A stretch of 64,000 nt of DNA from a virus, in IMG/VR virus record IMGVR_UViG_3300009034_002371, positions 18,762-82,761 of that record. One strand, given 5' to 3'. A program made the position numbers and the translations under genes. Under the pieces are notes generated by a model. The model ran no database searches. It had not been told where the DNA came from and saw only the letters and a program-made list of their open reading frames with translations. Shown here in pieces: positions 44,589 to 64,000 of the stretch. The number at the start of each line of letters is the position of its first letter. Positions within the stretch are counted from its first letter, which is position 1.

Positions 44589-45836
44589 ATGGCACTTAAC
44601 GCAGCGATTGTGTGGGAGGTAAGAACCTCCGGCAATAATAATAATGGTGGAGGCTTCAAAGCGGGGGCATCTGGGACTGATCGCTCGCAACAGGACGCTG
44701 CCCATTTATCTTTTACCGATCTAGAAGTTAAGGGCGCGGTCTATACCAGAGTATACTCTGTCACAGAGAATGCAAACTTAGTTGCTACTTGTATTGGAAA
44801 CTTAATCCATATAACTGGCGACGGTGGCTCCGGGCTTTTTACAGTCGGGTTTTATGAGGTCACTGGGCAAGGTAACGATGGTAATAACTATCTCGATATA
44901 GATAGGAACTGCGCTACTGGTAATGCTAGTGACGGAATTGCCGCCCTCGGGGGCGCTGTTGCGGACTTATTGGAGATAGATAGTGTTGTAGTCGCGGGTA
45001 ATACCATGTATGTTAAAGCTGGAACGTACGCTCACGCTAGTGCGTTAAGTGTAAACAATGGTACTGCTAGTCTATATATTAAAACAATAGGCTATAATAC
45101 TGCTAGGGGTGACGCCCCCACAGGTGATAACAGGCCACTGATACAGGACGGCGGTAACGAACAGAAATGGGGAACGTATAACGAGATTGAGAATTTCAGA
45201 CGTACAGGTTCTCACACCTACGGTATCTATACTTTGAACTACTGCGTTATTCGCAATTGCAAGAGTACGGTAGCAGCTAACACACGCTGCTTCAGGTATG
45301 GTGCTGGAAGTGTTGTGATCGATTGTGAAGCTATTGGACCTGGTACCCTAGGGATAGGTTTTGAATCGTCCGGAGGTGGTTCATTTACAATAGCTTGTTA
45401 TGCCGAGGGTTTGAACCGAGGCTATGAACATGTAATAGGTAATGAGGTAGTCGCCTTCTGCACTTTCGATACTTGTACATATGGGTGGTACGGTAATAAC
45501 GTTAATGGTCGCCCAGGTTGTAAAATTCTCAATAATAATTTTTATAACAGCTCGAATACTGGTGTGTATGGTAATTATGGAGGGCAGACAGCGTATTCCT
45601 GGCTCGTTCTGAATAACCAATTTGTGGACTGCGGTGTTGGCATGCAAATAACTATTTCTTCGCCAGGGGTATATCTTGATTTTAATAACTTCTTTAATAA
45701 TACCACAGATGTAACTAACGTTATCAAGGGTGCAAATACAACAGCGAACAATCCCGGATATACAAATGCCCCTGCTGGCGATTTCAGTGGTGTTGACAGT
45801 GCAGACGGCTTTGGTATTAGACTTGGAGTTGGATAA
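44589..45836 (+). CDS. Beta-helix virion protein (paralog of ORF 25669), lacking the terminal DQGAxQ motif
   Basis: MALNAAIVWEVRTSGNNNNGGG, GYNTARGDAPTGDNRP, beta-helix repeats. Ends GFGIRLGVG with a TAATG overlap into the next gene. Confidence 0.68.
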   Translation: MALNAAIVWEVRTSGNNNNGGGFKAGASGTDRSQQDAAHLSFTDLEVKGAVYTRVYSVTENANLVATCIGNLIHITGDGGSGLFTVGFYEVTGQGNDGNNYLDIDRNCATGNASDGIAALGGAVADLLEIDSVVVAGNTMYVKAGTYAHASALSVNNGTASLYIKTIGYNTARGDAPTGDNRPLIQDGGNEQKWGTYNEIENFRRTGSHTYGIYTLNYCVIRNCKSTVAANTRCFRYGAGSVVIDCEAIGPGTLGIGFESSGGGSFTIACYAEGLNRGYEHVIGNEVVAFCTFDTCTYGWYGNNVNGRPGCKILNNNFYNSSNTGVYGNYGGQTAYSWLVLNNQFVDCGVGMQITISSPGVYLDFNNFFNNTTDVTNVIKGANTTANNPGYTNAPAGDFSGVDSADGFGIRLGVG

Positions 45837-47935
45837 TGGCTCAAGCAACAATATACCAAGGGGCCTGGCAGCAAAGTACCTATCAAGGGGCCTGGCAAGA
45901 GCAAGCGCCTGTTTCCAGTTCGTCTTCATCCTTGAGCAACTCATCGAGTAGCTGTTCATCAAGCTTCAGCTCATCGAGTTCATGTTCAAGTAGCTTCAGT
46001 AGCTGTTCCTCGAGTTCAAGCTTCTCGAGTAGCAGTTTCAGTTCATCGAGTAGCAGTTTCAGCTCATCAAGTTCATGTTCAAGTAGCTTCAGTAGCTGCA
46101 GTTCATCGTTTTCGAGTTCATGTAGCAGCTCATCGAGCTTCAGCTCATCGAGTTCATGTTCAAGTAGCTTCAGTAGCTGCAGTTCATCGTTCTCGAGTTC
46201 ATGTTCAAGTAGCTTCTCAAGTAGCTGTTCGTCAAGCTTTGCTTCCAGCTCATGCAGTAGCAGTTTTAGTTCCGGTTCGCTTTCATCCTCATCTTCGAGC
46301 AGTTTGGCTGTTCCGCGTCCACCAGAGGCTCGGAACGTGATTATTCGACCTCTAAGTCCACGGCCTCATCATGATCTAGAGCTGACCTATGATTACTATG
46401 ATCCTGACGGTGACCCCGAGCAGGGATCTTTAATCCAGTGGTATAGGAATGGTGGGCGTCAATCGGGCTATGATAACTTGTCAACACTTCCCTACACGGC
46501 TACCAGTGCAGGTGAAATCTGGTACGCTATGGTTCGACCGAGAGATAATCAGGGGTTGTGGGGAAACTGGGCTATTTCTAACATTGTGCGGATATCGTCT
46601 GTCATTACAGACTGGTATTATGGTCCGGGTGCATATCCAAGCAGACAATTCGAGCGCCGGCCGGTAGTTCCTAGCTTTTCAAGTTCATCACGTTCAGTAA
46701 GTTCAGTAAGTGCAAGTTCTTCGAGTAGTTCTAGTTTATCAGGTATAAGCAGTTCGAGTAGTAGATCATCCGAGTCGCTTTCTGAATCATACTACTTTAT
46801 GGATACTGCATTCAAGTCTACAAGCTCCTATGTGTTTGCTACTGTTATAAGTTACGCCACCGGCAATCCTAGGGGAGTTGTGTCTATAGATGTGGACGAT
46901 CCATCGAACCCGAGCATTGTTGGCTGGTTGCCAATTGATCCTACTGTTTATGGTAGCGTTAAACATTGTCAGATTACAAATTCTGGCCACCTTGCAGTGA
47001 GCCTTAGTGAATGGAGTGGTGTTTCTGGAGGTGTAATCTTAGTTGATATATCTAACCCTGCCTCCATGTCGTTGATGGGGAAATATAGTCTTGGAAATCC
47101 AGCCACATATGTTACCAGTGTGAACTACTTCGATGTGGCTACCATCACGGGGCCTGAGGAACGTATTTATCTTGCAACAGCTGATAGTGCGCTGGGATTA
47201 GTTGCCGTAGATATAGATAATCCTAATAGTTTAACCAAGGCCGGTGACTATGTGCCAGGGACGGAGATTTTTGATGTTGCTGTTACTAATAACAATGTTG
47301 TTGTTATAACTAATAACAGAGTTCGGTTCTTGTCTAGAAACGATTCTCTTACACTTCAGAGCGAGCCCGATCTAACGACAGCCCCTGGAACTTCCGGGAG
47401 CTGTCCTACCTGCAACTACGACCCAAGCAAAGCTACGGGCTTTAACGATACTGATTTCAAGTTACTTACTCTTGCCGCAGACGCAGCAGCAAACGTTGTC
47501 TATTTTGTAGTACGTAAACTCGATGCAACAGCAAGCCACTTATGGGTGGTCAACTCCGGTGGAGTGGAAAGTCTTGCCCCAATTAGTTTTGGAACTACAT
47601 CAGATCTTCAAATGGTTATTTACTTCAACACCGGAGTATATGTATGTGCTTCGGTTAGTGCTCGTATATTGTACTCCCACGATTCAAATAATACTATTGA
47701 TTTTTGCGACACCCCTTGGTATATGGGAATGAACTGTGGACCACCAACACCGTCCATTTACCTAGATTACCCTGTGTCTAAAGATACTAAAAGTCATGAT
47801 ATTATAGGAATAGATGGGGGTATAGTGTCTGCAACACCTTATATATTCTGTGCTTGTATGGATGAGGGGTTGAGGATTTATGACGTAACTGACATAAGTA
47901 ATCTTTCATTGGAGTATGTAAACTTTGGTCAATAG
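45836..47935 (+). CDS. Modular protein: tandem QGAWQ motif + Ser tract + Ig-like domain + Ser tract + LVIVD-repeat beta-propeller
   Basis: YDYYDPDGDPEQGSLIQWYRNG marks the Ig domain. GVVSIDVDDPSNP, GVILVDISNPAS, GLVAVDIDNPNS and GLRIYDVTD are LVIVD repeats. Confidence 0.72.
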   Translation: MAQATIYQGAWQQSTYQGAWQEQAPVSSSSSSLSNSSSSCSSSFSSSSSCSSSFSSCSSSSSFSSSSFSSSSSSFSSSSSCSSSFSSCSSSFSSSCSSSSSFSSSSSCSSSFSSCSSSFSSSCSSSFSSSCSSSFASSSCSSSFSSGSLSSSSSSSLAVPRPPEARNVIIRPLSPRPHHDLELTYDYYDPDGDPEQGSLIQWYRNGGRQSGYDNLSTLPYTATSAGEIWYAMVRPRDNQGLWGNWAISNIVRISSVITDWYYGPGAYPSRQFERRPVVPSFSSSSRSVSSVSASSSSSSSLSGISSSSSRSSESLSESYYFMDTAFKSTSSYVFATVISYATGNPRGVVSIDVDDPSNPSIVGWLPIDPTVYGSVKHCQITNSGHLAVSLSEWSGVSGGVILVDISNPASMSLMGKYSLGNPATYVTSVNYFDVATITGPEERIYLATADSALGLVAVDIDNPNSLTKAGDYVPGTEIFDVAVTNNNVVVITNNRVRFLSRNDSLTLQSEPDLTTAPGTSGSCPTCNYDPSKATGFNDTDFKLLTLAADAAANVVYFVVRKLDATASHLWVVNSGGVESLAPISFGTTSDLQMVIYFNTGVYVCASVSARILYSHDSNNTIDFCDTPWYMGMNCGPPTPSIYLDYPVSKDTKSHDIIGIDGGIVSATPYIFCACMDEGLRIYDVTDISNLSLEYVNFGQ
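45914..46303 (+). repeat. Second long poly-Ser(Cys/Phe) coding repeat
   Basis: About 130 codons. 46133-46194 matches 39523-39584 at 61 of 62 nt. Confidence 0.92.
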
Positions 47936-48045
47936 AGTATCCGGAGAGGAGTTAGGTTTTTATCATTAGGTGATAGGAGGAGAGGAGCGGCCGAGGAAGT
48001 TCTAGTTCCCCGGTGTATCATTACTTATTTAAGGAGGTTGTCAGA

Positions 48046-49512
48046 ATGGCTTACCGTCCACCTGGAGTATATGTCGAGAAGATAGTCAATCCTGGCTTAG
48101 TTGCTATGTTTCAGGGAGCTCGCGTACCTGTTATAGTAGGAGCTGGTCAGCGGACTATAGAGGAGGTAGAGAGTCTTGTACATGGATCTGCGGGGGGTAC
48201 TGATCAGCTTACGTACGCTGCAACATCGATAATAAGATCTGGTGACTATCCGGATCAGATAAAGTATCGGGAAGGTACCGACTTCCTCTTCAGCGGCACG
48301 TTAGCTAACCCCTCACAGAACCTAGTTTGGAGTCCCTCTGGATCAGGTACGCGAGAACCTGATGTAGGAGCAACTTACTGGGTGACGTATAGACGTCCGG
48401 TAGATGATGATCAGTACGATTATCATATGTATACTAACGAGAATGACATCATTCAGCGCCATGGACCCGAGTCCAGTTTTAACCTTGCGACTGTGGGGGC
48501 CATTGTTGCTCTGAGACAGGGTTGTCAACAAGTTGGCATTATCCAGTTGAACCTAGTGGCAGCTACTGAGCAAAGTTACCCACATGGGGATCCTGATGAT
48601 CCAACACCCGCTGAGTGGTATACGGCGTTTATAGACGTCCTACCAATTCTCGAGCAGCTTGATACAGAGCAGTGTAGATACATTGTACCCATGACCACGT
48701 TGGGTGACGAGGCAGGGGAAGAAGATTACGATATCTTCAATGATTACCTGTTCCATGTCGACGAGATGAGCTTGACTTCTCAGCGTAGATGGAGAATGAT
48801 AGTCAGGGGGAAGGCGGCGACCCCGAGTGCATCCAATAGCACCGTTCGGGATGCGTTTAAAACGCAAGCTGAAGGGTACCGCTTCCATAATTCCGCTCGC
48901 AGGATGATAGTAGCCAGCCCGGGCGAGATTTACAGGATAATTCGGGACCCCGATACGGGGATCGCTACTAGAACGCTGTTTGATGGTAGTGTACTTGCAG
49001 CCGCGACTGCCGGTAGAATTTGTTCCTGGAACAATCCTGCAGTTCCTATCACCATGAAGGATTTTGCCGCGATCCAGTTCACCAGGATCTTCAGTAACGC
49101 TGACATGAACTATATGGCAGCTAACGGTGTTTGCGTATACTGGTACAAGGGTGAGAGTCTTAAATGCCGTCATGGTATAACATGCGACCTCACTAATGCT
49201 AATACGCAGGAGATCTCTGTCGTGGAGATAGAGGATTGGATCAAAGTGCAAGCTATCTTTGTACTGGAAAACAGGTATATCGGATCGATTATTGTAGGAG
49301 GGTTAACCGAGTCGATCCGAGCTACCCTAGTTGCACACTGGGAAGGACTGGTAAGAGCACAGAATATTGCAGACTTCGATCAGGGCTCTATTACAGTGAC
49401 CCAGAATGAAACTGATCCTCGTATCATTGATGTATACGGCAGGATAAAACCAGCGTACCCACTAAACTGGATTGATATTCGATTCATGTTCTACGCTGGT
49501 CCTGCCACATAA
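48046..49512 (+). CDS. Tail sheath protein
   Basis: AAGGAGG SD. N-terminal YRPPGVYVE. C-terminal GITCD...QEISVV.I.D...YIG...PAYPLNWIDI. Confidence 0.9.
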   Translation: MAYRPPGVYVEKIVNPGLVAMFQGARVPVIVGAGQRTIEEVESLVHGSAGGTDQLTYAATSIIRSGDYPDQIKYREGTDFLFSGTLANPSQNLVWSPSGSGTREPDVGATYWVTYRRPVDDDQYDYHMYTNENDIIQRHGPESSFNLATVGAIVALRQGCQQVGIIQLNLVAATEQSYPHGDPDDPTPAEWYTAFIDVLPILEQLDTEQCRYIVPMTTLGDEAGEEDYDIFNDYLFHVDEMSLTSQRRWRMIVRGKAATPSASNSTVRDAFKTQAEGYRFHNSARRMIVASPGEIYRIIRDPDTGIATRTLFDGSVLAAATAGRICSWNNPAVPITMKDFAAIQFTRIFSNADMNYMAANGVCVYWYKGESLKCRHGITCDLTNANTQEISVVEIEDWIKVQAIFVLENRYIGSIIVGGLTESIRATLVAHWEGLVRAQNIADFDQGSITVTQNETDPRIIDVYGRIKPAYPLNWIDIRFMFYAGPAT

Positions 49513-49529
49513 GGCCTCATGATTAGCAC

Positions 49530-49558
49530 TTGCGTCAAGAGGTACATTATTGTGTAAT
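49530..49558 (+). promoter_or_regulatory. sigma70-like promoter TTGCGT-N17-TGTAAT upstream of tail tube gene
   Basis: Consensus spacing in the intergenic gap. Confidence 0.45.
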
Positions 49559-49658
49559 CTTCGATTGAAGGTGGGCGTTAACTCGCCTGGACTCTAGGGT
49601 GGTGCCGCGAGAGGGTAACCACCTTAGGTCCTTGGTGTATGCTCATATATTGAAGATT
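49556..49658 (+). ncRNA. Multi-branched structured leader between sheath and tube genes
   Basis: AATCTTCGAT/ATTGAAGATT encloses GGGCG/CGCCT and a ~14-bp stem at 49589-49631. Confidence 0.4.
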
Positions 49659-49675
49659 TGAAGGGAGGATGAAAG

Positions 49676-50344
49676 ATGCCTTTTCCAAGCGGATTGACAG
49701 GGTGGCGAGATGTTCCGCCTCCACCACAAGCGACAAGGGTTTACTATTCTTACCGCATCCTGGTACCCGCTGTAGAGTACGGTGGTGGAGCAGGAATCGG
49801 AGGAAAGACTATGGTGCAGGTTGGAACCTTCCAAAACTTTGCACCAACATCAACCCGTCAAGTGGTCCGTGTAAGGGGTATTGCCAATAACGGTGGATAT
49901 CCTTTAGAGCTAGTTCCGGGACCAGCTGACACCTCTATCAATGTTACCTACCTATCTCTTTATCTATTGCCTCTTAATGAGGCACTTGGATACGATATAG
50001 GTTCAGTGGTTGACTTGAACAGGCAACGGATACCTTTTGATATTCAAGAGGTGTGCCAGATGCCTATTGGAGCTGAGGCCTTCGGGCAGATTGGGGAGGC
50101 CGGCATTCCTAGGCGAAGAACTGCGTACGAGGTAAACCACTATTACGAATGTTACCTAAGTAACGTTGGTAGAACTATTAACCAGGGTACTGTAACCATT
50201 GCAGAAACTGCAACGATTCAAGTTACAGCTGTGGCTCCTCTAAAGCAGCCGCCTGAGATGGGAACTGCGCTTGATGTGCCAGAGATTCCAAGTCTTGGTG
50301 CAAGAGGCGGTACTCTATATTCTACGACACCGGCGTTCGGATAA
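49676..50344 (+). CDS. Tail tube protein
   Basis: Follows the sheath. VG..Q...TSTR.V.RVRGI, ELVPG, PFDIQE, Y..CYLS......I..G.VTIAE.ATI. Confidence 0.8.
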   Translation: MPFPSGLTGWRDVPPPPQATRVYYSYRILVPAVEYGGGAGIGGKTMVQVGTFQNFAPTSTRQVVRVRGIANNGGYPLELVPGPADTSINVTYLSLYLLPLNEALGYDIGSVVDLNRQRIPFDIQEVCQMPIGAEAFGQIGEAGIPRRRTAYEVNHYYECYLSNVGRTINQGTVTIAETATIQVTAVAPLKQPPEMGTALDVPEIPSLGARGGTLYSTTPAFG

Positions 50345-50368
50345 TACACTATTGAGAGGGTGTATGTT

Positions 50369-50857
50369 ATGGCTTTTGTGTGGCCCGATACTGAGCGGGA
50401 TACTGTGACGGCTAGACTCACTCAGCTGTTTACACTTCCCGCTAGGGTCTTTGAGGTTCCAGTTGGAGAGGGGCAAGTAATAAGGGTTAAACTGCGCCTA
50501 CTAAATGATAGGGAGAATCTGGAAGTTGCCGATATGGTTGACAGGTATGGTATGATCGGTAAGTCTATTGTAGAGCGCAGGCAGATTCTTGCCAGAGCGG
50601 TTCTGTGGCTTGAAGATCAGCCCCTTCGGATGTCTACGTCTGTAAAGCAGAGTTTTATGGATCGTAACGACCGATCTCCTACAGAGGTAGAGGAGAAACT
50701 GTGGGTTTTCGAGATGTGTCAACCTGTAGTATTGGATGCTTTGTTTGAGAAGTATGATGAGCTGATGCGTGAGCAGTTAAGACTCGTGAGTGAGTTAAAA
50801 AAAAATTACGTAGACGGCTTGGAAGGGACGCAACCCGAGATGAAGTCGTCTCCGTAG
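50369..50857 (+). CDS. Tail assembly chaperone (lambda gpG-like)
   Basis: Lies between tube and tape measure. Ends just after an ELKKN slippery site. Confidence 0.75.
   Translation: MAFVWPDTERDTVTARLTQLFTLPARVFEVPVGEGQVIRVKLRLLNDRENLEVADMVDRYGMIGKSIVERRQILARAVLWLEDQPLRMSTSVKQSFMDRNDRSPTEVEEKLWVFEMCQPVVLDALFEKYDELMREQLRLVSELKKNYVDGLEGTQPEMKSSP
50797..50856 (+). promoter_or_regulatory. Programmed -1 ribosomal frameshift signal (A9 run + downstream hairpin)
   Basis: TTA AAA AAA AAT. The -1 frame is open into ORF 50899. 50807-50820 pairs with 50843-50856 (13 of 14). Confidence 0.8.
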
Positions 50858-51453
50858 TTCTGTTCCGATTCCCCTACCTGTTACACGATTTTGGAAAAAT
50901 GTCCGAGTTCGGTTGGTGGTATCTGTATATCCAGATTTTGCAGGCAGAAGGGGAAAAGAGGAAAGAGATCAGCGATCTCATAGAGGCTTTGTTGCCCTGG
51001 ATAAACCCGGAACTTTGGGCCGAGGTTCAAAAGCGCGACGGGAAGGTTCGGGAGAATGTTGCTTTTGAGAACCAGATTAGATCCATGTTTGACGGGACCT
51101 GGGATCCGGATCCTAGTGCAGAACAGGTTCCCTTTATTGATGAACTTGCTGTAAGTGAACCGGGATCAGAAGCTGATCTAGTGCAACAAATGTTTAATCA
51201 ATATGGACAGGAGCAACCCCCTGGTACAATAAGAAGTCAGTTATTCCCAGGTGTGCCGCCTACGTTTAGGGGGCCTGGGGATCAGGTTCCCGAGACAATA
51301 GGGGCTGTTTCTAGAGACCCACGTCGCGTTCAATCAAGTCCCGGGGGCGCTGAGGAGGCTTTTAGACAATTGCGGAAGCGAGAACGAGAACAAGAACAAG
51401 AACAGTCATCACCAGAGACCCAACTGCCTAGTTCTGAAGAGGAGGATAAGTAG
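50806..51453 (+). CDS. Frameshift extension of tail assembly chaperone (gpGT-like)
   Basis: The -1 frame reads LRRRLGRDATRDEVVSVVLFRFPYLLHDFGKMSEFGWWY... with no stop. No SD precedes ATG 50899. Confidence 0.75.
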   Translation, partial: LRRRLGRDATRDEVVSVVLFRFPYLLHDFGKMSEFGWWYLYIQILQAEGEKRKEISDLIEALLPWINPELWAEVQKRDGKVRENVAFENQIRSMFDGTWDPDPSAEQVPFIDELAVSEPGSEADLVQQMFNQYGQEQPPGTIRSQLFPGVPPTFRGPGDQVPETIGAVSRDPRRVQSSPGGAEEAFRQLRKREREQEQEQSSPETQLPSSEEEDK

Positions 51454-53894: not shown

Positions 53895-53903
53895 GGTGAT
53901 ACT

Positions 53904-54794
53904 ATGGCAGGTATACAGTTAGCAGCACCCGTAAGGACAGCAACGCGACCATTTAATGATGTTGAACGGATGGCTATTGAGCGGGCAAACACTCCATCAG
54001 ATTTTGTCGTTATGCATATTAACCCGCAGAGAATCAATATCCGCTACAGAAAAGTGATTCAGCGAGTTCAGACGAACACTCGGTGGGTTTTTCAGCACTG
54101 GGGAGCAGAGCCAGTTACCCTTACTTATAACGGACTTACTGGCTATATGAATTCTGAGGTAGCTCAAGAGTATAGTCGAAAGTATCTACCAAATCAAATT
54201 ACCAGTCTTCGAGATGCAAGAGAAGCGCGAAAGTTTCTTACACCATATGAAACTAACGCTTATAGAGCTCTATTGAGATTGAAAACGTTTTATGAAGAAC
54301 CTCATAAGTGGCTCCAAGGAAGAGACTTAACCAAGATTGCTGGAGCCAATATAGACGATAGACTGCAGGGCCTGAAGTTAAATTTGTATTATCGCGATAC
54401 AATGTATGTAGGATACTTCACTAGAATGGAGATCCGGGAGGAGGAGACCTCCCCTTGGATGTGGGCTTACAGTATGGAGTTCACTGCGTACGACACGCAA
54501 TCTAGCCCATGGCAGGGTCAACTTACTAGCTGGGAGAGAGATGCGCTGGCGGAGGCTGCGAAGGAAGCAGGCATAGAAGTGGATAAGGTTCTAGCCCGAG
54601 CAAGTAAGTTAGTTGAGAAGTCGGCACCGTCTACAAAGGGTACTATACCTCCGGGTCCAGCTCGTTGGGGTCCTGCTGCTGCATCTGAGCAGGCATGGAA
54701 GAAAGAGTCTTATACAAGAACTCCGCAGTTTAATGCTAACTTAGTTCGTAAGAATCTGTTAACTGTCCAAACTAGTGACGAGGAGTCGGAATAG
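53904..54794 (+). CDS. Baseplate/tube initiator protein
   Basis: INPQRINI.Y.K.....TNT.WVFQHWG....LTY.G.TG and Y.GYF..MEI.EE..SPW..AYSMEF. Position follows the tape measure. Confidence 0.6.
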   Translation: MAGIQLAAPVRTATRPFNDVERMAIERANTPSDFVVMHINPQRINIRYRKVIQRVQTNTRWVFQHWGAEPVTLTYNGLTGYMNSEVAQEYSRKYLPNQITSLRDAREARKFLTPYETNAYRALLRLKTFYEEPHKWLQGRDLTKIAGANIDDRLQGLKLNLYYRDTMYVGYFTRMEIREEETSPWMWAYSMEFTAYDTQSSPWQGQLTSWERDALAEAAKEAGIEVDKVLARASKLVEKSAPSTKGTIPPGPARWGPAAASEQAWKKESYTRTPQFNANLVRKNLLTVQTSDEESE

Positions 54795-54801
54795 TTTAGT
54801 T

Positions 54802-57792: not shown

Positions 57793-57802
57793 GAGTATGT
57801 GA

Positions 57803-59920
57803 ATGGCTATTGGTACTCCCGGACATTTTTATAGAGATGGTTTAGAATCGGGTCCTAGCCCCTATCTTCGGTGGGGTATAGTTGAAGATGTGTATGAAAC
57901 AGATAACTTTTATCCTGCCACAGATGAGTTCGGTAACATAGATAGAGCTATCCCCCTGTCATATGCTCGGTCTGTTACTATTAAATGGTGTAATGCGGCT
58001 GCAGGTCGTTCTACGGTTAAGTTTGTGGAACCCTGGGGCGTAACATCTATGCCCCTGAAGGGCTCTGTAGCTGCAGTAGGATTTGTAGGAGGTCCTGGTG
58101 GTGAGCCTGTTATATTGGGCTTCTGGACGCAAGGGTATGCTCAGCGTTTGATTAAGGGGCCGGAAGATGAACTGGGTACTGGGGAGTTGGGACCAGGTCT
58201 AAAACCCGGTCAGGAGATCTGGCGCAGGTCGGGTTGGCGACTTCGTGTAATACCCTATTACAATGATGTACGGAAGTTTGATGAGCAGTATGTACAGTCT
58301 CCGTGGGCGTTAGATTTAATAGCCGGGGAACAAGCAGACAAGGCATGTTTCTGTCCTAAATGTCAAACTAGATATGCTGCTACGGAAGAGCGGGATTCAG
58401 AAACTGGCAAACTGAAACTTACATGTCCGACTGAGTGTCCTGAGTGTGGTGGTAAAGCTATCCTGGTTACGAGTTCTGTGGCAAGCGGGCAGGGTGAAGC
58501 GTGGCTTGTTGTTCAGGAGATAAGGCTCGTTAACGCGATAATGAAAGAACTTTCGGACCTATATGACGAAATAATTATAGGTGCTAACATCCCAGATATT
58601 ACATTGCAGGTTGAGATTCAGAGGCGGTGGCGCCGTTTTCGTGATACCGAGTTAAGGCGTAAATGGGGAAGAGAAGTCGGAGGCTTTTTTAGAGCCCAAG
58701 TTGCCGGGTACTGGGAATCTATTCTCAGGGAATATTTTACAGTTGGTAATCTCCTGACTTATGCACATGATGCCCCGATTATGACTGGCCCACTTGTTCT
58801 TTTACTACATCAATATGTAGAAGGGTGGCTGCTTACGCATCTCACTAACTATCTAATGGTAGATGGTAGGCTTACCAAGGCACAGAGAGATGCGCTTATG
58901 AACAGGCTCAGGACTAATCTCGTAGCCTATATAACAGACTATACGCCACGGTTGATAGAACAGATGGTCAAGCAGGCTATAATGAATAAGGCCAGAGCTT
59001 ACCTCACTGATGTAGTTTCACGGCTCCGGAGGAAGGCAGTTAACTGGTTACATAAGACCTTTCTTAAAACAGCTAAAGACGCGGCTCTTGGTTTTATCAG
59101 GGATAAGTTGGATATAGATTGGAAAGGGTTTAGATGGGTACGTGATACAGCTGGTCAAACTATTGCTGATTTTTATGAGAAAGTTGCAGAGTTCGACCTT
59201 GTTGCGGAAATGAGGAAAGCACTTGACGAGGGTTTAGAAGATCCAGAAGAACTTCCGATATTAGAACTCCGGGGAGAGCAAGCTATACGTTCTGTGCTAA
59301 ATCCGGAGTCTGGTAGGGAAGAGGGTCAAGGAGATAAGGCATCTAGGTTTACTCTCAGATTGTATAGGGACGGCGAACTACATATTCAAGTACAGGAAGG
59401 GCTCTTTCTCTACTGTCGTGCAGACGGTACCTTTGAGCTTGACTGTGAAGCTATAGATTTTACAGCTAATAAACTCGATGTATTACTTCGTGACTTTTCT
59501 CGTATAGTTGTTCAAGATATCTTAGCCATAGGTAATCCTCTCGGAGAAGCTGGTCCTCAACCTTTTAAGAAGGTAACACTCGATGAAGATAATGTAAGGG
59601 AGTATGACCCAGGTCCCGCTGGCATAAGTACGAGGCGGTTTGTAGAACGAGTTGCATGGGCATATATCTCGCAACAGTTAGGACAACTATTTGCTCAGGC
59701 GCCTGTAACGCCTACCGATGGCGGATTAACGTTTAAGACATACCTAGCAACACAACTCCTCGGGGGCAGTCCCCTGAGCTGGAACCTGGGGTCGTCTCTC
59801 CCGCTAGGCATATCGTCTCTTGCGGAAGCTATTGGAGTCCTCAAACAGCTAACAATCCCCCCACCGGATTCCATTGTTGGTAAAACTGAAGCATCTGCAG
59901 AGCATATAGAAGGCAACTAG
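57803..59920 (+). CDS. Central spike (gp5/gpV OB-fold) protein with Zn-ribbon and helical insertions
   Basis: GIVEDVY...SVTIKW...MPLKGSVAAVGF...PVILGF, then LKPGQ. Beta-strand C-terminal part. Position between hub and gp25. Confidence 0.6.
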   Translation: MAIGTPGHFYRDGLESGPSPYLRWGIVEDVYETDNFYPATDEFGNIDRAIPLSYARSVTIKWCNAAAGRSTVKFVEPWGVTSMPLKGSVAAVGFVGGPGGEPVILGFWTQGYAQRLIKGPEDELGTGELGPGLKPGQEIWRRSGWRLRVIPYYNDVRKFDEQYVQSPWALDLIAGEQADKACFCPKCQTRYAATEERDSETGKLKLTCPTECPECGGKAILVTSSVASGQGEAWLVVQEIRLVNAIMKELSDLYDEIIIGANIPDITLQVEIQRRWRRFRDTELRRKWGREVGGFFRAQVAGYWESILREYFTVGNLLTYAHDAPIMTGPLVLLLHQYVEGWLLTHLTNYLMVDGRLTKAQRDALMNRLRTNLVAYITDYTPRLIEQMVKQAIMNKARAYLTDVVSRLRRKAVNWLHKTFLKTAKDAALGFIRDKLDIDWKGFRWVRDTAGQTIADFYEKVAEFDLVAEMRKALDEGLEDPEELPILELRGEQAIRSVLNPESGREEGQGDKASRFTLRLYRDGELHIQVQEGLFLYCRADGTFELDCEAIDFTANKLDVLLRDFSRIVVQDILAIGNPLGEAGPQPFKKVTLDEDNVREYDPGPAGISTRRFVERVAWAYISQQLGQLFAQAPVTPTDGGLTFKTYLATQLLGGSPLSWNLGSSLPLGISSLAEAIGVLKQLTIPPPDSIVGKTEASAEHIEGN

Positions 59921-60189
59921 TCTCTAGTATATGGCTAAAAGCCTTTTATCCCCCTTATAAGCCACTTTTAGCTTAAGCGTTATGTAAAGTCCCGTTTTTA
60001 TTTATGCCGCCCCTTAAAACCCCGGTTCCCGACGCAGGTCCAATTTTCAGATTCGGGCCGCATCTTTTTGCTGCGTACTTATTTCAAGGGGCTAGCAAAT
60101 ACGTTTAGAAAACTAGTTATAAAAACCTTATGAATCCGTGGACTGAGCGCACTTGAGTTTTACTACTTCGTAGGGATAGAGAACTAAAA

Positions 60190-60696
60190 ATGAGTTTTGA
60201 TATAGGTAAAACAATACCTTGTGACCATGTAGACAGGTATGGCAACACCTATCATAGCCCTGAACGAATAAACCTATGCCCGAAGTGTGCGGGTAGCAAC
60301 GAGTATTACGATTTCGTTTGGAGCGTTGTATCTGGAGATATAGAGTTGGTTGAGGATAATCCATTACTTCAAGAACTCTGTGTTAAAGCTGTTGTAACCG
60401 CGAAAGGTGACAATATATTTCACCCGAGTTATGGAACTTCTATTGCTGATTCCGTAGGTGCTCCCTCATCGTCCATTGAAGCAGTTGCCCGATTGATTGA
60501 GCGTGAAATCGTCAAGGGTATCGGAGCTGTAAGATTTAGACAGGACCAACAGTTGGAACTTGGGCAGGAGATGAGTGACGATGAGCTTCTCCATTCTCTT
60601 GATGGAATAGAGATAGGAATAGCAGATGAGAGAACCTTATCTGTAACTTTGCGTATCATAGCGGAGTCAGGGAGCTCACTGGTATTTACTATTTAG
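60190..60696 (+). CDS. gp25/gpW-like baseplate wedge protein with N-terminal Cys/His finger
   Basis: LLQE..KAVVTAKGDNIFHPSYGTSI...VG. N-terminal PCDH...CPKC.G. Confidence 0.75.
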   Translation: MSFDIGKTIPCDHVDRYGNTYHSPERINLCPKCAGSNEYYDFVWSVVSGDIELVEDNPLLQELCVKAVVTAKGDNIFHPSYGTSIADSVGAPSSSIEAVARLIEREIVKGIGAVRFRQDQQLELGQEMSDDELLHSLDGIEIGIADERTLSVTLRIIAESGSSLVFTI

Positions 60697-60708
60697 GAGG
60701 TGCTTTGT

Positions 60709-62160
60709 ATGGGAGCTAGTGGCATTAGAAGCTATGATGAGATAGTAGAAACTCTGCTAGCAGAACTGCAGAGTACGCAGCCCAATGCTAATCTAGCTAT
60801 TGGAACTGCTAATAGAGACTTACTTGTCGATGTTCCAGCTAGCTCGCTAGCTGAACTATATGGTGAGGTTGCTATTGCTCAGGAGGCTCAGTCAGTCAGA
60901 GATGCTATCAACGAGCATCTAGATAGGCTTTTGGCTAACTGGGCACTATATAGAAGGCCGGGAACAAGAGCGCGCGGCTCTATAATCTTCTATCGAGATA
61001 CTGTTCCTATTGCTGATATAGAGATCCCAGCGGGTACGATGCTGCAGACTTCTACAACAATAGAGCAAGACTCCATAGAGTTTGTTACTACAATAACTGT
61101 GACTATGTTAGCAGCACAGGCGTCGGATTATTATAATCCTGCGGAGGATAGGTATGAGATCCAGGCTCCTATAGAGGCGGCTATTAGCGGGATCTCGGGT
61201 AATGTTGGTCCGGGCACCGTCACTGCATATACGGGGACTGCAGATGTCAGTGGAGTTACCAACATTACTTCGACAAGTGGTGGATCTGATGGTGAGACAG
61301 ACATAGAGTTGCGAGCAAGAGGTACATCAGTGCTTGCGGGTGTGAATGCAGGCACTAAACAAGGTTATGAGATTCTAGTAGAGACTATCCAGGGAGTTCA
61401 GAATGCAATCGTAGTTGATCCAAACGATTCGGAGATGGAGAGGGTTAGAGATGGCGGCGGTGCAGATGTCTGGATTGAAACTCAGGAGATTGAAGAGGCA
61501 ACGGAAACGTATACCTATCCATCAGGGGAAACCTATAGATCGTTGGAGAACAGACCCGTGTTATCCATCTCGTCGGTTAAATCGGATGGGGTATTGTTAG
61601 TCCCTGGTACAGATTATGAGTTCGGTTATGATACTGGAGTCTATGCTAGATCTGTATATTCAAGGGACCGCCTTAACTGGATAATAACCCCGGTTGTAGG
61701 TTCTACTATTGAGATAATATATGCCCACACGGATCTCATTCAGACCCTACAGGATCTCCTAGATGCCGATGATAATCATCATGTTGGTGCGGAAATAGTA
61801 GCTAAGGTTGCTTACTACGCCGATATAGATGTTACTATGACAGTTGAAGTGCTCGCGGGATATAACCCAAGTGATGTTACAAGCACTGTTAATACTGCTA
61901 TTACAGCGCACATTGAAGCGCTCGAGCTAGGTGATGGAGTACAACAGTCCGATCTAATTGCTCTAGCAGAAGTAACGCCAGGTGTGGACTCCGTGGTTCT
62001 TCCGCTTACAACATTTCAAGTAACGCGAGAGCTTTCCGGAATTACCGATGGCCCTGATGAGGTGGAAGGAGTTGCAACGGGAGCTACTACTGGTAATCTA
62101 GTGCTACGGCGCTTTGAATCGCCTAGAGTAGACGTTGTTCAGATAAACTATTACGTATAG
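60709..62160 (+). CDS. Baseplate J / gp47-like wedge protein
   Basis: GGAGGTG SD. LDRL..NW.L.R, IPAGT, G.SGNV, GGSDGETDIELRAR, GT..GY, GGADVWI, TPGVDSV. Confidence 0.9.
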   Translation: MGASGIRSYDEIVETLLAELQSTQPNANLAIGTANRDLLVDVPASSLAELYGEVAIAQEAQSVRDAINEHLDRLLANWALYRRPGTRARGSIIFYRDTVPIADIEIPAGTMLQTSTTIEQDSIEFVTTITVTMLAAQASDYYNPAEDRYEIQAPIEAAISGISGNVGPGTVTAYTGTADVSGVTNITSTSGGSDGETDIELRARGTSVLAGVNAGTKQGYEILVETIQGVQNAIVVDPNDSEMERVRDGGGADVWIETQEIEEATETYTYPSGETYRSLENRPVLSISSVKSDGVLLVPGTDYEFGYDTGVYARSVYSRDRLNWIITPVVGSTIEIIYAHTDLIQTLQDLLDADDNHHVGAEIVAKVAYYADIDVTMTVEVLAGYNPSDVTSTVNTAITAHIEALELGDGVQQSDLIALAEVTPGVDSVVLPLTTFQVTRELSGITDGPDEVEGVATGATTGNLVLRRFESPRVDVVQINYYV

Positions 62161-62169
62161 GAGTAAGAG

Positions 62170-63903
62170 GTGGCTGATTTTGAAACCACTCCGGCAACTG
62201 AACCAGTTTCTATTAGAGCACAGATGCTGGAGCGTTTAACTAGATACTATCCTAGAGACTCTCGTAATACCAACTTCTACAAATTTCTATCGGCTCTTGG
62301 CGATATAATGACCGATATAGATTTTGAGGTAGATTATACTATCCTGGATAATGGTATCGACGAGGCTCGAGTAGCTGCCCTATACCCCAACTTTGGGTAT
62401 GTTGCTGCCGATCTCCCTCCTAGAGGAGACCTAAACTGGGGGTGGGACGATTATAGGTTTATGCTGAAAGTGTTAACAGAGGCATGGACCGTTTACGGCT
62501 CTACCAAGTTTGGACTACGTAGAGTGGTACAGGTAGCAACTGGGGTCTCTCCTTACGTCTTTGAACACTACTGGCACGCGGGCTGGATTCTAGGACAGTT
62601 CGCATTGGGCGCTACTGCCATAGTACAGACCGGTAATTATATATGGAACTCGGTTTCACTCCCTGCGGTAAGCACTTATGACTTTGAAGCTATATGGCCT
62701 CAACAGCAAACTAGAGTCTGGGCTTGTGGTACGGATGGAGCTGCCGGACAGATATGGAGAAGTCAAAACGCTGGTGAGACGTGGTATACTATGTCCCCTC
62801 CAGCAGCTGTCATATATTATGATATCCATGGAATCTCTCCTTCTAAAACCTGGGCCTGTGGTGATACTGCAGCAGCCGCTATAGTTGTTCAATGGCATCA
62901 TATTTTTGGCTGGAGTACTGTACTTAGTGTCCCTGGTATCTCGTTTAGAGGGATCTGGATGCGTTCTTCTCAGGAAGGTTGGGTAGTTGGTACACTGGGT
63001 ACTGTTTATCACTGGAGTGGAGGTACATGGACGTTAACTGCTATTCCCGGACCTGCTTTATCTCTCTTTGCAGTAGACGGGACACCAGATGGATATGTAT
63101 ATGCTGTAGGCGCTAGTAGTAAAGTTGTTAGGTACGACCCTACAACTTTAACTTGGTCAGATGTTTCTGTGCCAGGACCTCCTCAAGATTTTAGGTCTGT
63201 CTCTGTAGTAGATAGGGATACAGCTTATGCTTGTGGTTTGACAGGAGCTGTCAGCTGGACAACTGATGGTGGCGCATCTTGGTCAAGTACTGTGATCCCA
63301 CCCGCCCTCGACTTACATGGTATTTCGGCTTCTTCAGACGGACAGGATATCCGTGTAGTAGGAAGAACCGGGGTGTTATACTATTCTCAGGATGGTGGGG
63401 CTACTTGGGGAACTGAATCTTATCAAGGCTCGTTAGTTGACCTGAATGGTATCCGTATGCGCCCTAACGATACTATGGGGTTTATATGTGGGGATAACGG
63501 AGTGCTCTTACGGCGTAACGGGCAGTCTCCGGGATATACGCTCTCCAATGGAGAGTTTTTAGCAAACGGTGAACTTATAGATGGTGCTATTCTAGAGTCC
63601 CGTTATGGTAGAAGAAACTCGGTTGATGTTATTGTTTGGAACGTTATGGATTATAATCTGCTATGGCGTTTCCTTACTGAGATGAAGCCCGCACATGTTA
63701 AGTTATTTATCATGTTTGAGCATCCATTTATAATGGATTACTACTATTATGATGAAGACTTTTATACGGGCGCCCACAGGAGGCATTTGTTAGCAGATGT
63801 TGGGCCGGGAAGGGGTACAGTAATTAACGGCCGGACGTACGGTGAGTCGATGAGCAGAGTCGTGGTGAACGAGGGGGAGTTGTTTATACCACAACTACCT
63901 TGA
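62170..63903 (+). CDS. gpI-like baseplate wedge protein with inserted YCF48/BNR-type beta-propeller
   Basis: N-terminal YYP..NFYKFL...YRFML...GST..GL. Repeats WACG/WVVG..G and TTDGGASW/SQDGGATW. C-terminal EMKPAHV. Confidence 0.75.
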   Translation: MADFETTPATEPVSIRAQMLERLTRYYPRDSRNTNFYKFLSALGDIMTDIDFEVDYTILDNGIDEARVAALYPNFGYVAADLPPRGDLNWGWDDYRFMLKVLTEAWTVYGSTKFGLRRVVQVATGVSPYVFEHYWHAGWILGQFALGATAIVQTGNYIWNSVSLPAVSTYDFEAIWPQQQTRVWACGTDGAAGQIWRSQNAGETWYTMSPPAAVIYYDIHGISPSKTWACGDTAAAAIVVQWHHIFGWSTVLSVPGISFRGIWMRSSQEGWVVGTLGTVYHWSGGTWTLTAIPGPALSLFAVDGTPDGYVYAVGASSKVVRYDPTTLTWSDVSVPGPPQDFRSVSVVDRDTAYACGLTGAVSWTTDGGASWSSTVIPPALDLHGISASSDGQDIRVVGRTGVLYYSQDGGATWGTESYQGSLVDLNGIRMRPNDTMGFICGDNGVLLRRNGQSPGYTLSNGEFLANGELIDGAILESRYGRRNSVDVIVWNVMDYNLLWRFLTEMKPAHVKLFIMFEHPFIMDYYYYDEDFYTGAHRRHLLADVGPGRGTVINGRTYGESMSRVVVNEGELFIPQLP

Positions 63904-63914
63904 GGTGATTAAGG

Positions 63915-64000
63915 ATGGCTGATCAAATAGATCAGGGTGCGGCGCAGGAGTTAAATCAGGGTGCGTGGCAAGCCCCTACTGCGAGTGAATCTTCATCGAG
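63915..64000 (+). CDS. Start of another Ser-rich modular protein with tandem QGAxQ motif (3' truncated)
   Basis: GAGGTGA SD. Reads MADQIDQGAAQELNQGAWQAPTASESSS to the window end. Confidence 0.7.
   Translation, partial: MADQIDQGAAQELNQGAWQAPTASESSS

What the first reader, a model, noticed from the sequence alone, without database searches (positions are those of the whole stretch)
44589..64000. The beta-helix C-terminal QGAxQ motif has moved, in tandem, to the N-termini of other genes
Seen: intact family members finish the helix with DF...G.G...DQGA[IL]Q (38632, 40831). Two members (25669, 44589) stop just before this motif, at GFAVRVGV* and GFGIRLGVG*. The gene overlapping the 44589 stop starts MAQATIYQGAWQQSTYQGAWQ and then poly-Ser (DNA repeat 45857/45884). 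The gene at 63915 in the baseplate region starts MADQIDQGAAQELNQGAWQ and then Ser. Inference: QGAxQ is a donor peptide that completes and captures motif-less beta-helix subunits, two per scaffold. This would be a plug-and-socket, cellulosome-like way of hanging interchangeable carbohydrate-binding heads on neck and baseplate fibres.
Basis: partly seen in the sequence, partly recalled or inferred. Interest (0 to 1): 0.85.

Follow-up and report, generated by a model that had tools for sequence, protein, structure and literature searches.

The report
Split beta-helix cap joins phage proteins
In this uncultured phage and at least twelve other phage lineages, a sugar-enzyme-like beta-helix protein stops just short of its usual last strand, and a neighbouring protein begins with two copies of that strand, so the two most likely clip together by rebuilding the fold.

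Summary
QGAxQ occurs six times in the 82.8-kb contig, at the named places. Shuffled sequence gives a mean of 0.45.

ORFs 25669 and 44589 are paralogous right-handed beta-helix proteins. They end about 7 residues after GxGF and lack the D-Q-G-A-x-Q strand that ORFs 36427 and 39838 carry in cis. ORF 45836 overlaps the 44589 stop (TAATG). ORF 63915 lies in the tail-fibre position. Both start with a tandem QGAxQ pair.

The split is not a sequencing error:
- Thirteen phage lineages keep a truncated helix ("socket") next to a gene that starts with tandem [IQ]GA[WYF]Q ("plug").
- Each plug gene has its own ATG, usually preceded by GGAG.
- Socket ends and plug starts map to consecutive positions of a profile built from unsplit relatives.
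- One homologue, P0022, has both parts in a single chain.
- Plug proteins share only their N-termini. Their bodies include lectin-like and esterase domains.

The stoichiometry is unresolved.

This scan found the same design earlier on other DNA (e1-5696798, e1-5696782). My four literature searches found no description of it.

The parts
25669..26868 (+). Short beta-helix protein P0001 (399 aa), an 'orphan socket'. It ends GAGFAVRVGV* and no plug gene is adjacent; the next gene, 26928, is a methyltransferase.
   Evidence: Translation. Pfam NosD, E 8.9e-8, 32.3 bits against a cut-off of 23.6. It ends at position 66 of the 92-position cis profile. No motif lies in any frame after the stop.
36427..39828 (+). 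Protein P0006 with the C-terminal two thirds of a beta-helix module and the cap strand in cis (DQGAIQ at 38632-38649). A roughly 130-aa domain and a poly-Ser tail follow.
   Evidence: Translation. The cis profile is matched to position 91 of 92, domain E 4.8e-16.
39838..41250 (+). Complete beta-helix protein P0005 with the cap strand in cis (DQGALQ at 40831-40848) and a C-terminal domain.
   Evidence: Translation. Alignment A1. Cis profile positions 7-91, E 7.7e-17. Pfam Beta_helix, E 3.5e-5, just below the cut-off.
44589..45836 (+). Short beta-helix protein P0002 (415 aa), the 'socket'. It ends DGFGIRLGVG*.
   Evidence: Translation. It is 42% identical to P0001. 26 homologues end the same way.
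45825..45838 (+). Junction: GGAG (45825-45828, inside the Leu-Gly-Val codons), TAA stop (45834-45836) and ATG of the plug gene (45836-45838). The plug gene is in the -1 frame relative to the socket gene.
   Evidence: Sequence. The same GGAG/GGGG-spacer-ATG layout occurs at the other junctions read.
45836..47935 (+). Plug protein P0003 (699 aa): tandem plug (QGAWQ at 45857-45871 and 45884-45898), poly-Ser linkers, an Ig-like segment and an LVIVD-repeat region.
   Evidence: Translation. Pfam LVIVD, E 6.2e-8. The N-terminus aligns with the plugs of 9 other loci.
63915..64000 (+). Start of the second plug protein P0004: QGAAQ at 63933-63947 and QGAWQ at 63957-63971, then Ser-rich. It is cut by the contig end. 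It sits after baseplate J (60700) and the BNR-repeat protein (62170), that is, in the tail-fibre position.
   Evidence: Translation. Contig end. Context.

Best explanation
This is a naturally split beta-helix end.

P0002, and by homology P0001, is a right-handed parallel beta-helix protein of a large family from uncultured phages. It stops at ...RLGVG, just before the last conserved strand of the domain. That strand is D-[IQ]-G-A-x-Q, the phage counterpart of the DIGA[YF]E end of bacterial 'choice-of-anchor Q' beta-helix domains.

The missing strand is encoded, twice in tandem and with an aromatic residue at x, at the very N-terminus of another protein. Usually this is the next gene. That gene is translated from its own ATG, with a Shine-Dalgarno sequence lying inside the Leu-Gly-Val codons of the socket gene.

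Inferred mechanism: the N-terminal plug inserts into the open C-terminal end of the helix and restores the cap. This makes a stable heteromer. A flexible Ala/Pro/Ser linker then tethers whatever body the plug protein carries: in the window an LVIVD-repeat protein, elsewhere discoidin, ConA-like lectin, sialate-esterase-like domains, or almost nothing.

Shown here:
- the truncation;
- the homology of the plug to the cis strand;
- the conserved adjacency of socket and plug genes;
- separate translation starts;
- the modular distribution of the plug on unrelated proteins.

Inferred, not shown:
- physical docking;
- which partner is fixed to the virion;
- how many helices one tandem plug holds.
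For: 1. Truncation at a homologous point. P0001 and P0002 end about 7 residues after GxGF, where P0005 and P0006 continue to DQGA[IL]Q. In a 92-position profile built from 54 unsplit homologues, 10 of 10 sockets end at position 66 or earlier. 10 of 10 plug N-termini map to positions 75-91.

2. Fused forms exist. P0022 reads ...GFGIRLGVGATPSTIHQGAYQ... in one chain. The L022 ORF reads ...ITLGVATDVTTHQGAV....

3. Co-occurrence, helix side. Among 46 IMG/VR loci, the 7 with an LGV-ending helix all have an ORF at or overlapping the stop that starts with a tandem motif. None of the other 39 does. Fisher p = 1.9e-8, ignoring relatedness.

4. Co-occurrence, plug side.
- Pattern GA[WYF..]Q-N15-GA..Q: 9 of 37 hits lie at ORF starts (7 lineages), and all 9 are next to a truncated helix gene. 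None of the 28 others has a helix hit.
- Pattern with N12 spacing: 3 of 53 loci, with the same result.
- In L061 the order is tape measure, plug protein, socket.

5. Numbers match. L071 has three tandem sockets followed by a protein with three motif pairs. L130 has two socket-plug cassettes. Five records have one socket each, and each shows one pattern match. The window has two sockets and two plug proteins.

6. Separate genes. Every plug has an ATG. GGAG or GGGG lies 7-9 nt upstream at most junctions. The frame relation varies: a -1 overlap in 6 loci and in-frame in 4.

7. The plug is the only shared part. In an all-against-all BLAST of 11 plug proteins, similarity stays within the first 17-41 residues, except for L009 against L031.

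8. A profile of the plug finds 14 further N-terminal tandem plugs, on proteins of 42-1253 aa, among 22 hits in 1.84 billion representatives.

9. Both units are under selection. Over 11 proteins, comparing 7 codons per unit, there are 31 identical codons, 30 synonymous differences and 16 amino-acid differences.

10. Position x is aromatic in 21 of 22 trans motifs and in 0 of 54 cis motifs. For loci found by the DNA pattern this count is biased, because the pattern required such a codon. The 8 plugs found from the socket side are unbiased: 16 of 16 are aromatic.
Against:
- The individual plug-to-profile matches are weak (E 0.02-1.5 in a 20-sequence search), as expected for about 12 residues.
- P0001 has no adjacent plug. 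P0004 has no adjacent socket upstream; a BNR-repeat protein precedes it.
- The conserved LGV tail overlaps the ribosome-binding site of the next gene, so part of its conservation may be at the nucleotide level.
- Most plug proteins in the library search are tiny (10 of 14 are 103 aa or shorter). That fits a cap or assembly factor as well as a tether.
- The L071 and second L130 plugs lack the aromatic residue and are degenerate.
- The lineages are related to unknown degrees, so the Fisher values overstate independence.
Confidence: 0.68

Rival explanations
1. The plug is a transient assembly chaperone or cap. It covers the open, aggregation-prone helix end only during folding or assembly and is not a permanent tether in the virion.
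For: 10 of the 14 N-terminal plug proteins found in the library are 42-103 aa long with no recognisable body. L006, L041 and L042 have plug ORFs of 71, 52 and 89 aa. Small genes after fibre genes are often assembly factors (general knowledge, recalled). The L130 plug protein has a weak, sub-threshold Phage_TAC_7 match, E 6.5e-4.
Against: Large plug proteins carry lectin-like or esterase domains behind flexible linkers. These would have no obvious route to the virion without a permanent joint. Cis relatives keep the strand permanently.
Confidence: 0.12
2. The tandem motif is an independent attachment tag that binds some other virion part, such as the baseplate or a neck protein. Its likeness to the helix end is only a relic of gene fission.
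For: P0004 follows the baseplate J and BNR genes and no helix gene. The L061 plug protein directly follows the tape measure gene. Short N-terminal peptides are known to dock receptor-binding proteins onto T4gp10-like domains (PMC6872550, passages read).
Against: Every N-terminal plug with readable context lies next to a truncated helix gene, including in L061. Sockets lack exactly the segment that plugs carry. No T4gp10-like or other docking domain was detected in P0001 or P0002.
Confidence: 0.08
3. Recoding (a -1 frameshift or stop read-through) makes one fused helix-plug-body polypeptide, so the split is only apparent.
For: In L002, L031, L042 and L080 the two ORFs are in frame, separated by one stop plus 0-2 codons. 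In the window the shift would be -1.
Against: The frame relation differs between lineages. I saw no slippery heptamer in the 18 nt where a shift would have to occur in the window. Every plug ORF has its own ATG, mostly with GGAG 7-9 nt upstream. In L061 the gene order is reversed.
Confidence: 0.04
4. An assembly or sequencing error split one gene in this contig.
For: It is a metagenomic contig. No sequencing run was found that holds the stretch, so the reads could not be inspected.
Against: The same stop/start layout recurs in independent assemblies of 12 other lineages. 26 homologues end at the same residue pattern.
Confidence: 0.01

Closest known systems
Lactococcus phage Tuc2009 baseplate tripod: BppU C-terminal beta-hairpin with BppA domain 2 (PMC4742702; passages read)
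   Same: This is a solved phage adhesion-device joint. A roughly 25-residue terminal hairpin of one protein 'completes one of the beta-sheets' of another protein, and so holds a carbohydrate-binding module at the periphery. In both cases a short terminal two-strand element acts as the joint.
   Different: In Tuc2009 the donor is C-terminal and completes an Ig/titin-like sandwich. Here the donor is N-terminal, is a tandem repeat, and is homologous to the last strand of a right-handed beta-helix that unsplit relatives carry in cis. No structure exists for the present case.
Anchor-branch receptor-binding systems with short conserved N-terminal peptides docking on T4gp10-like domains (K1-5/SP6, G7C gp63.1-gp66, KP32, CBA120; PMC6872550, passages read)
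   Same: Short conserved N-terminal peptides (7-29 aa) on otherwise variable tail proteins serve as standard connectors. The depolymerase or binding bodies are interchangeable.
   Different: The docking site there is a T4gp10-like domain, and none was detected here. Here the peptide is the missing piece of the partner's own fold. The supplementary figure of that paper, which lists the peptide consensus sequences, could not be opened, so I could not compare them with GA[WYF]Q.
Choice-of-anchor Q domain (NCBIfam NF041518) at the end of bacterial beta-helix proteins
   Same: Same position and same pattern: DP.F..A..GDF.L...SP.I.AG ... D-I-G-A-[YF]-E. The bacterial ORF in L072 (...DIGAFE) matches NF041518 at E 1.9e-12 and also matches the phage socket profile.
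   Different: In bacteria it is one continuous segment. P0001, P0002 and P0005 do not reach the model at E 0.01 or better. The phage motif ends in Q, not E.
Donor-strand complementation in chaperone-usher pili (recalled, not read here)
   Same: An incomplete fold is completed by an N-terminal strand of the next subunit.
   Different: The fold differs (Ig-like against beta-helix). There is no chaperone-usher machinery here, and the donor is a tandem repeat.
Earlier reports of this scan on other DNA: e1-5696798 and e1-5696782 (choice-of-anchor-Q-like motif split across phage tail genes) and e1-5678532 (beta-helix with separately encoded cap)
   Same: The same idea: a phage beta-helix lacks its last piece, and neighbouring tail proteins start with it (summaries seen).
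   Different: They concern other genomes. I saw only their short summaries and could not compare sequences.

Membership tests
Right-handed parallel beta-helix proteins (Pfam NosD PF05048 / Beta_helix PF13229) | Match to the Pfam repeat models above the gathering score | tested here: met
   P0001 matches NosD at 32.3 bits against a cut-off of 23.6. P0002 has no Pfam hit of its own but is 42% identical to P0001 over its full length. P0005 matches Beta_helix at 23.9 bits, just under the 25.9 cut-off.
Choice-of-anchor Q domain (NCBIfam NF041518) | Match to the 58-position model at or above 25 bits | tested here: not met
   P0001, P0002, P0005, P0030, P0067 and P0084 give no hit at E 0.01 or better. 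The bacterial L072 ORF scores 47.3 bits.
Choice-of-anchor Q domain (NCBIfam NF041518) | Terminal D-I-G-A-[YF]-E strand after DP.F...D[FY].L...G | tested here: inconclusive
   The same order of elements is visible, with D-[IQ]-G-A-x-Q in the phage proteins. The likeness is by pattern, not by a significant alignment.
Anchor-branch RBP systems (T4gp10-like docking domain plus N-terminal conserved peptide) | T4gp10-like domain in the docking protein | tested here: not met
   P0001 and P0002 give no such hit in Pfam or PHROGs. No HHpred-type search was run.
Anchor-branch RBP systems (T4gp10-like docking domain plus N-terminal conserved peptide) | Short conserved N-terminal peptide on otherwise unrelated partner proteins | tested here: met
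   In 11 plug proteins the similarity is confined to the first 17-41 residues, apart from one pair. Alignments A5 and A7.
Beta-strand complementation joints (Tuc2009 BppU-BppA type) | A terminal strand or hairpin of one chain is built into a sheet of the other chain | not testable with these tools
Beta-strand complementation joints (Tuc2009 BppU-BppA type) | The acceptor lacks, and the donor carries, a segment that is contiguous in unsplit relatives | tested here: met
   Sockets end at profile position 66 or earlier and plugs map to positions 75-91. P0022 is a fused form.
Programmed recoding (one gene read through or shifted) | A conserved frame relation and a recoding signal at the junction | tested here: not met
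   Frames differ between lineages, and each plug has an ATG, mostly with GGAG upstream.

The most novel reading that the evidence does not exclude
The tandem GA[WYF]Q tag and the open-ended helix form a portable coupling standard used across many uncultured phages. Any protein carrying the tag can be clipped onto any LGV-ending beta-helix. The two near-identical units each cap one helix subunit, so one plug protein clamps two helices. Pairs need not be neighbours: in this phage the orphan socket 25669, in the head/neck gene block, would be captured by the tail-fibre-position protein 63915. Gene order alone would then not reveal how the virion surface is wired.
Probability: 0.3. Interest if true: 0.85.

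Novelty: new variant of a known kind. Interest (0 to 1): 0.72.

Why it matters
Phage receptor-binding machines are built from exchangeable parts, and how the parts are joined limits both host-range evolution and engineering. This would be a joint of a different logic from the known N-terminal-anchor and T4gp10-like systems. The connector is a piece of the partner's own fold: the capping strand of a beta-helix.

That logic would make the two proteins dependent on each other for folding. It would also explain why the genes are translationally coupled.

The work yields a simple sequence rule for predicting who binds whom in uncultured phages: a helix ending ...LGVG paired with a protein starting M-x(1-6)-[IQ]GA[WYF]Q-x4-[IQ]GA[WYF]Q. 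It also gives a short peptide tag (about 20 residues) that could be tested as a natural protein-coupling device.

Finally, it is a natural test of the idea that beta-helices need end caps.

Tried and rejected
Sequencing error or single gene: rejected on the conservation of the split in other assemblies.

Recoding: considered and rejected as the main reading, because the frames differ and each plug has its own start.

I had also considered folding the in-frame L031/L042 junction read through its stop.

Solved relatives by sequence: only weak beta-helix repeat matches turned up (xylosidase 3vst, E 3e-4). The bacterial cap segment found none.

Cultured phages: tblastn of P0002 and P0084 against 50,697 GenBank phage records gave no match.

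Full length of gene 63915: an exact-match scan of IMG/VR for its 86 bases found nothing.

Relatives of this phage: the search for related loci with P0002 and with P0010 returned only distant loci. The metagenome scan gave 11 loci, all of them long forms or fragments.

Orthologues of the P0003 body: only two weak LVIVD hits.

A search for longer fused forms of P0002 gave one 807-aa protein, P0126. It has no LGV...GAxQ junction.

PHROGs gave no family for any socket or plug protein, apart from a weak tail-spike hit for the L080 plug protein.

Sequencing runs: no listed run holds more than 7% of the sampled words, and no RNA holder is listed.

Literature:
- 'beta-helix' + 'strand complementation' + 'phage': 1 irrelevant paper.
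- 'DIGAYE': only an author name.
- 'beta-helix' + 'capping motif' + 'aggregation': 19 papers, 10 seen as listings, none on phage split caps.
- 'tailspike/beta-helix/split/two genes/adaptor': 13 papers, 10 seen as listings. I opened only PMC6872550.

These four searches are the basis for saying I found no description in print.

Correction: I computed a plug-side Fisher test with 10 and 27. The correct count is 9 and 28, recomputed.

Full report
WHAT IS IN THE WINDOW

The window is the last 64 kb of a single 82,761-bp virus contig. It is a myovirus-type genome:
- tail sheath at 48013 (PHROG tail sheath, E 1.4e-12);
- a Mu gp45-like baseplate protein at 57803;
- a baseplate protein at 60190;
- baseplate J at 60700 (Pfam E 6e-21).

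Four ORFs belong to one beta-helix family. Two are short: 25669-26868 (P0001, 399 aa) and 44589-45836 (P0002, 415 aa). They are 42% identical, share the N-terminus MALxAxxVWEVRxxGxNNNGGG, and end at ...GFAVRVGV* and ...GFGIRLGVG*. The other two are 39838-41250 (P0005) and the middle of 36427-39828 (P0006). These run on for about 20 more residues to DQGALQ and DQGAIQ, then into a further domain of about 130 residues.

ORF 45836-47935 (P0003) begins MAQATIYQGAWQQSTYQGAWQ. ORF 63915 (P0004) begins MADQIDQGAAQELNQGAWQ and is cut by the contig end. QGA.Q occurs only at these six places in all six frames of the contig. Shuffles give 0.45 on average, and none of 200 shuffles gives a tandem pair.

THE SHORT FORM IS A NATURAL, WIDESPREAD FORM

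A word-indexed search with P0002 returned 132 homologues at E 1e-3 or better, and I examined the 119 listed besides the query. I classified them with a regular expression:
- 55 carry x-G-A-x-Q in cis after residue 330, typically ...TTGYLDIGA[AV]Q[HR]Q[DE]..GGG. One more, P0106, was misfiled as short.
- 26 end within two residues of ...[RL]LGV[G].
- One, P0022 (532 aa), has both in one chain: ...GFGIRLGVGATPSTIHQGAYQPAGG...
- 36 have other endings. These include variant motifs (DIGIAQ, NIGxDQ) and other early stops.

The fused P0022 places the window's two gene ends side by side: GFGIRLGVG | MAQATIYQGAWQ.

CO-OCCURRENCE FROM THE HELIX SIDE

Seven of these loci hold a helix that stops at the LGV tail: L002, L006, L009, L014, L031, L041 and L042. 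In all seven an ORF starting at, or one to four bases after, the stop begins with a tandem motif:

| Locus | N-terminus of the plug ORF | Length |
|---|---|---|
| L002 | MASRINQGAWQVMEQGTWQ | 759 aa |
| L006 | MATGLYQGAWQDRLYQGAWQ | 71 aa |
| L009 | MSASIPTIGAWQSQVTVGAWQ | 344 aa |
| L014 | MTASTPTIGAYQPSPTIGAWQ | 340 aa |
| L031 | MSAIGAYQPSESIGAYQ | 273 aa |
| L041 | MADNSPHIGAWQSISTDDDKPHIGAWQ | 52 aa |
| L042 | MAIGAFQHSTAIGAFQ | 89 aa |

None of the other 39 loci shows such an ORF. Those loci hold long forms or other endings, and two of them, L012 and L035, are cut by the contig end. The Fisher test gives p = 1.9e-8. It treats loci as independent, which they are not.

CO-OCCURRENCE FROM THE PLUG SIDE

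I scanned IMG/VR for the back-translated tandem motif.

- The strict pattern (GAWQ-N15-GAWQ) gave 4 hits. Three lie at ORF starts next to sockets and one is a chance hit.
- The degenerate N15 pattern gave 37 hits. Nine lie at ORF starts, in seven lineages: the L006, L009, L014, L031 and L042 contigs, L061, and the group L080/L093/L097. All nine lie beside a truncated helix gene. None of the other 28 has a helix hit.
- For the L080 group my first thresholds missed the helix. Its 439-aa upstream ORF matches the cis profile at E 8.8e-16 over positions 10-66 and stops 6 nt before the plug ATG.
- The N12 pattern gave 53 loci. Three lie at ORF starts (L115, and L130 with its relative L153), and all three directly follow a truncated helix.

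Gene order can differ. In L061 the order is tape measure (986 aa), plug protein (289 aa, F5/8 type C domain), socket (410 aa...GFGMRLGVG).

Counting the window and L071, this makes 13 lineages.

NUMBERS MATCH

- L071 is a contig binned with a Gammaproteobacteria MAG. It has three short helix genes in a row, followed by a 437-aa protein whose N-terminus holds three motif pairs: NIGAGL..EIGASQ, NQGATH..DQGAVQ and NIGATR..EVGAVQ.
- L130 has two socket-plug cassettes. The second plug is degenerate.
- Five whole records have one socket each, and each shows one pattern match.
- The window's contig has two sockets and two plug proteins.

COLLINEARITY WITH UNSPLIT RELATIVES

I built a 92-position profile from the last 75 residues up to the motif, plus 8 more, of 54 cis forms. 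Its consensus is ...DSPFTNAAGGDFSLNNTAGAGAALRAAGFPGAFPGGLTTGYLDIGAVQHQEAGGGG. On this profile 10 of 10 sockets end at position 66 or earlier (E 2e-7 to 2e-16), and 10 of 10 plugs fall at positions 75-91. The plug matches are individually weak, E 0.02-1.5.

The bacterial counterpart is visible in L072...DPKFTDAANGNFSLQASSPCIDAG...DIGAFEY. It matches NCBIfam 'choice-of-anchor Q' at E 1.9e-12. The phage proteins do not reach that model.

TWO GENES, NOT ONE

Every plug ORF starts with ATG. At most of the junctions GGAG or GGGG lies 7-9 nt upstream, formed by the Leu-Gly-Val codons of the socket. Stops are TAA or TAG.

The plug is in the -1 frame and overlaps the stop by one base in the window, L006, L009, L014, L041 and L071. 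It is in frame in L002, L031, L042 and L080. A single recoding mechanism does not fit this spread. Coupled but separate translation does. Sequencing error is excluded by the recurrence in independent assemblies.

THE PLUG IS A MODULE

Among 11 plug proteins, BLAST similarity is limited to the first 17-41 residues. The exception is L009 against L031.

Domains behind the plug:
- LVIVD repeats in P0003;
- F5/8 type C in L061;
- Laminin_G_3 in P0132 and an SASA carbohydrate esterase in P0143.

A profile of the plug (A7) searched against 1.84 billion representatives gave 22 hits at E 1e-3 or better. Fourteen are N-terminal tandem plugs on proteins of 42-1253 aa, and ten of these are 103 aa or shorter. 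Eight are internal repeats or translated junk. After the second unit there is always an Ala/Pro/Ser-rich stretch.

WHY TWO UNITS?

Cis forms have one motif, with V, A, I or L at position x (0 of 54 aromatic). Trans plugs have two motifs, aromatic in 21 of 22. The 16 of 16 found from the socket side are free of pattern bias.

Within a protein the two units resemble each other, including the variable residue before [IQ]G: YQ/YQ, LYQ/LYQ, PHI/PHI, PTI/PTI, DI/DI. Yet they differ at 30 synonymous sites, against 31 identical codons. The likeness is therefore kept by selection, not by recent gene conversion.

Against this, L071 pairs three different sockets with three pairs whose halves differ systematically. 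That would fit one pair per helix, for example a hairpin forming a last rung. I leave the stoichiometry open.

WHAT IS KNOWN

- Tuc2009: a 25-residue BppU hairpin 'completes one of the beta-sheets' of BppA and holds a carbohydrate-binding module on the baseplate (PMC4742702, passages).
- Branched receptor-binding systems use conserved N-terminal peptides of 7-29 residues that dock on T4gp10-like domains (PMC6872550, passages).

Neither involves a split beta-helix cap. My four literature searches found no such description. This scan has reported the same design on other DNA (e1-5696798, e1-5696782). One of those summaries gave me the Tuc2009 lead.

LIMITS

- No binding or structural test could be run.
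- The virion location of P0002/P0003 ('neck') rests only on gene position just upstream of the sheath. The neighbouring ORFs have no family hits.
- The pairing of P0001 with P0004 is a guess from counts. The contig ends inside 63915.

VERDICT

It is a new variant of known terminal-peptide and strand-complementation joints in phage adhesion devices.

Noticed in passing
window 34428-36368 and 36427-39828: This is a second split of the same beta-helix module. ORF 34428 carries only the first ~100 residues of the module (YYVRADALGGG...RPRFILGD), between poly-Ser tracts. ORF 36427 matches the family profile only from position ~179 onward. The split was also noted by other readers (e1-6124328, e1-6124308).
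   Followed up: partly
window 45823-45838; same place in L002, L006, L009, L014, L031, L041, L042, L071: The conserved Leu-Gly-Val codons at the end of the socket gene spell (T)TAGGAG / CTTGGAG. They therefore double as the Shine-Dalgarno sequence of the plug gene, so one stretch is under both protein-level and translation-signal constraint.
   Followed up: partly
L002 5838-6278, L006 4951-5484, L041 5171-5479, L042 7583-7918, L130 2483-2860: A small conserved gene (M.(T/I)N.KYSYKDF..., 102-177 aa) sits directly upstream of the socket gene in five lineages. It has no Pfam hit. I saw no equivalent upstream of 44589 in the window.
   Followed up: partly
L071 2798-4111: Behind its three motif pairs, the three-pair plug protein consists of more than a dozen copies of a unit of about 22 residues..ADSYQDQYTENI....
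   Followed up: no
window 26928-27554 and L001 5437-6000: A methyltransferase gene (Pfam Methyltransf_24, E 1.7e-16, for the window gene) lies next to the beta-helix gene in the window. A similar-looking 187-aa ORF lies next to the cis-form helix gene in L001, just after the capsid gene. The L001 ORF was not scanned.
   Followed up: no
L114, L117, L121, L125, L126, L140, L141, L143-L145, L147, L148, L150, L151: Fourteen large-phage contigs, 12 of them from one sample (3300045988), share a conserved stretch that reads ...SGGAFQVISSGAFQGVGVG... in one frame. In L140 the called ORFs there lie in other frames. I treated the stretch as non-plug DNA and left it unexplained.
   Followed up: partly
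P0138 (726 aa): A tail-fibre-like protein has about ten internal copies of ..QAN[IL]GAYQT[YF]ANTT... The GAYQ unit also exists as an internal repeat, not only as an N-terminal plug.
   Followed up: no
window 62170-63903: The 577-aa protein between baseplate J and the plug gene 63915 carries BNR/Ycf48-like propeller repeats (Pfam PSII_BNR, E 7e-10). This is unusual for the gpI position of a Mu/P2-type baseplate.
   Followed up: no
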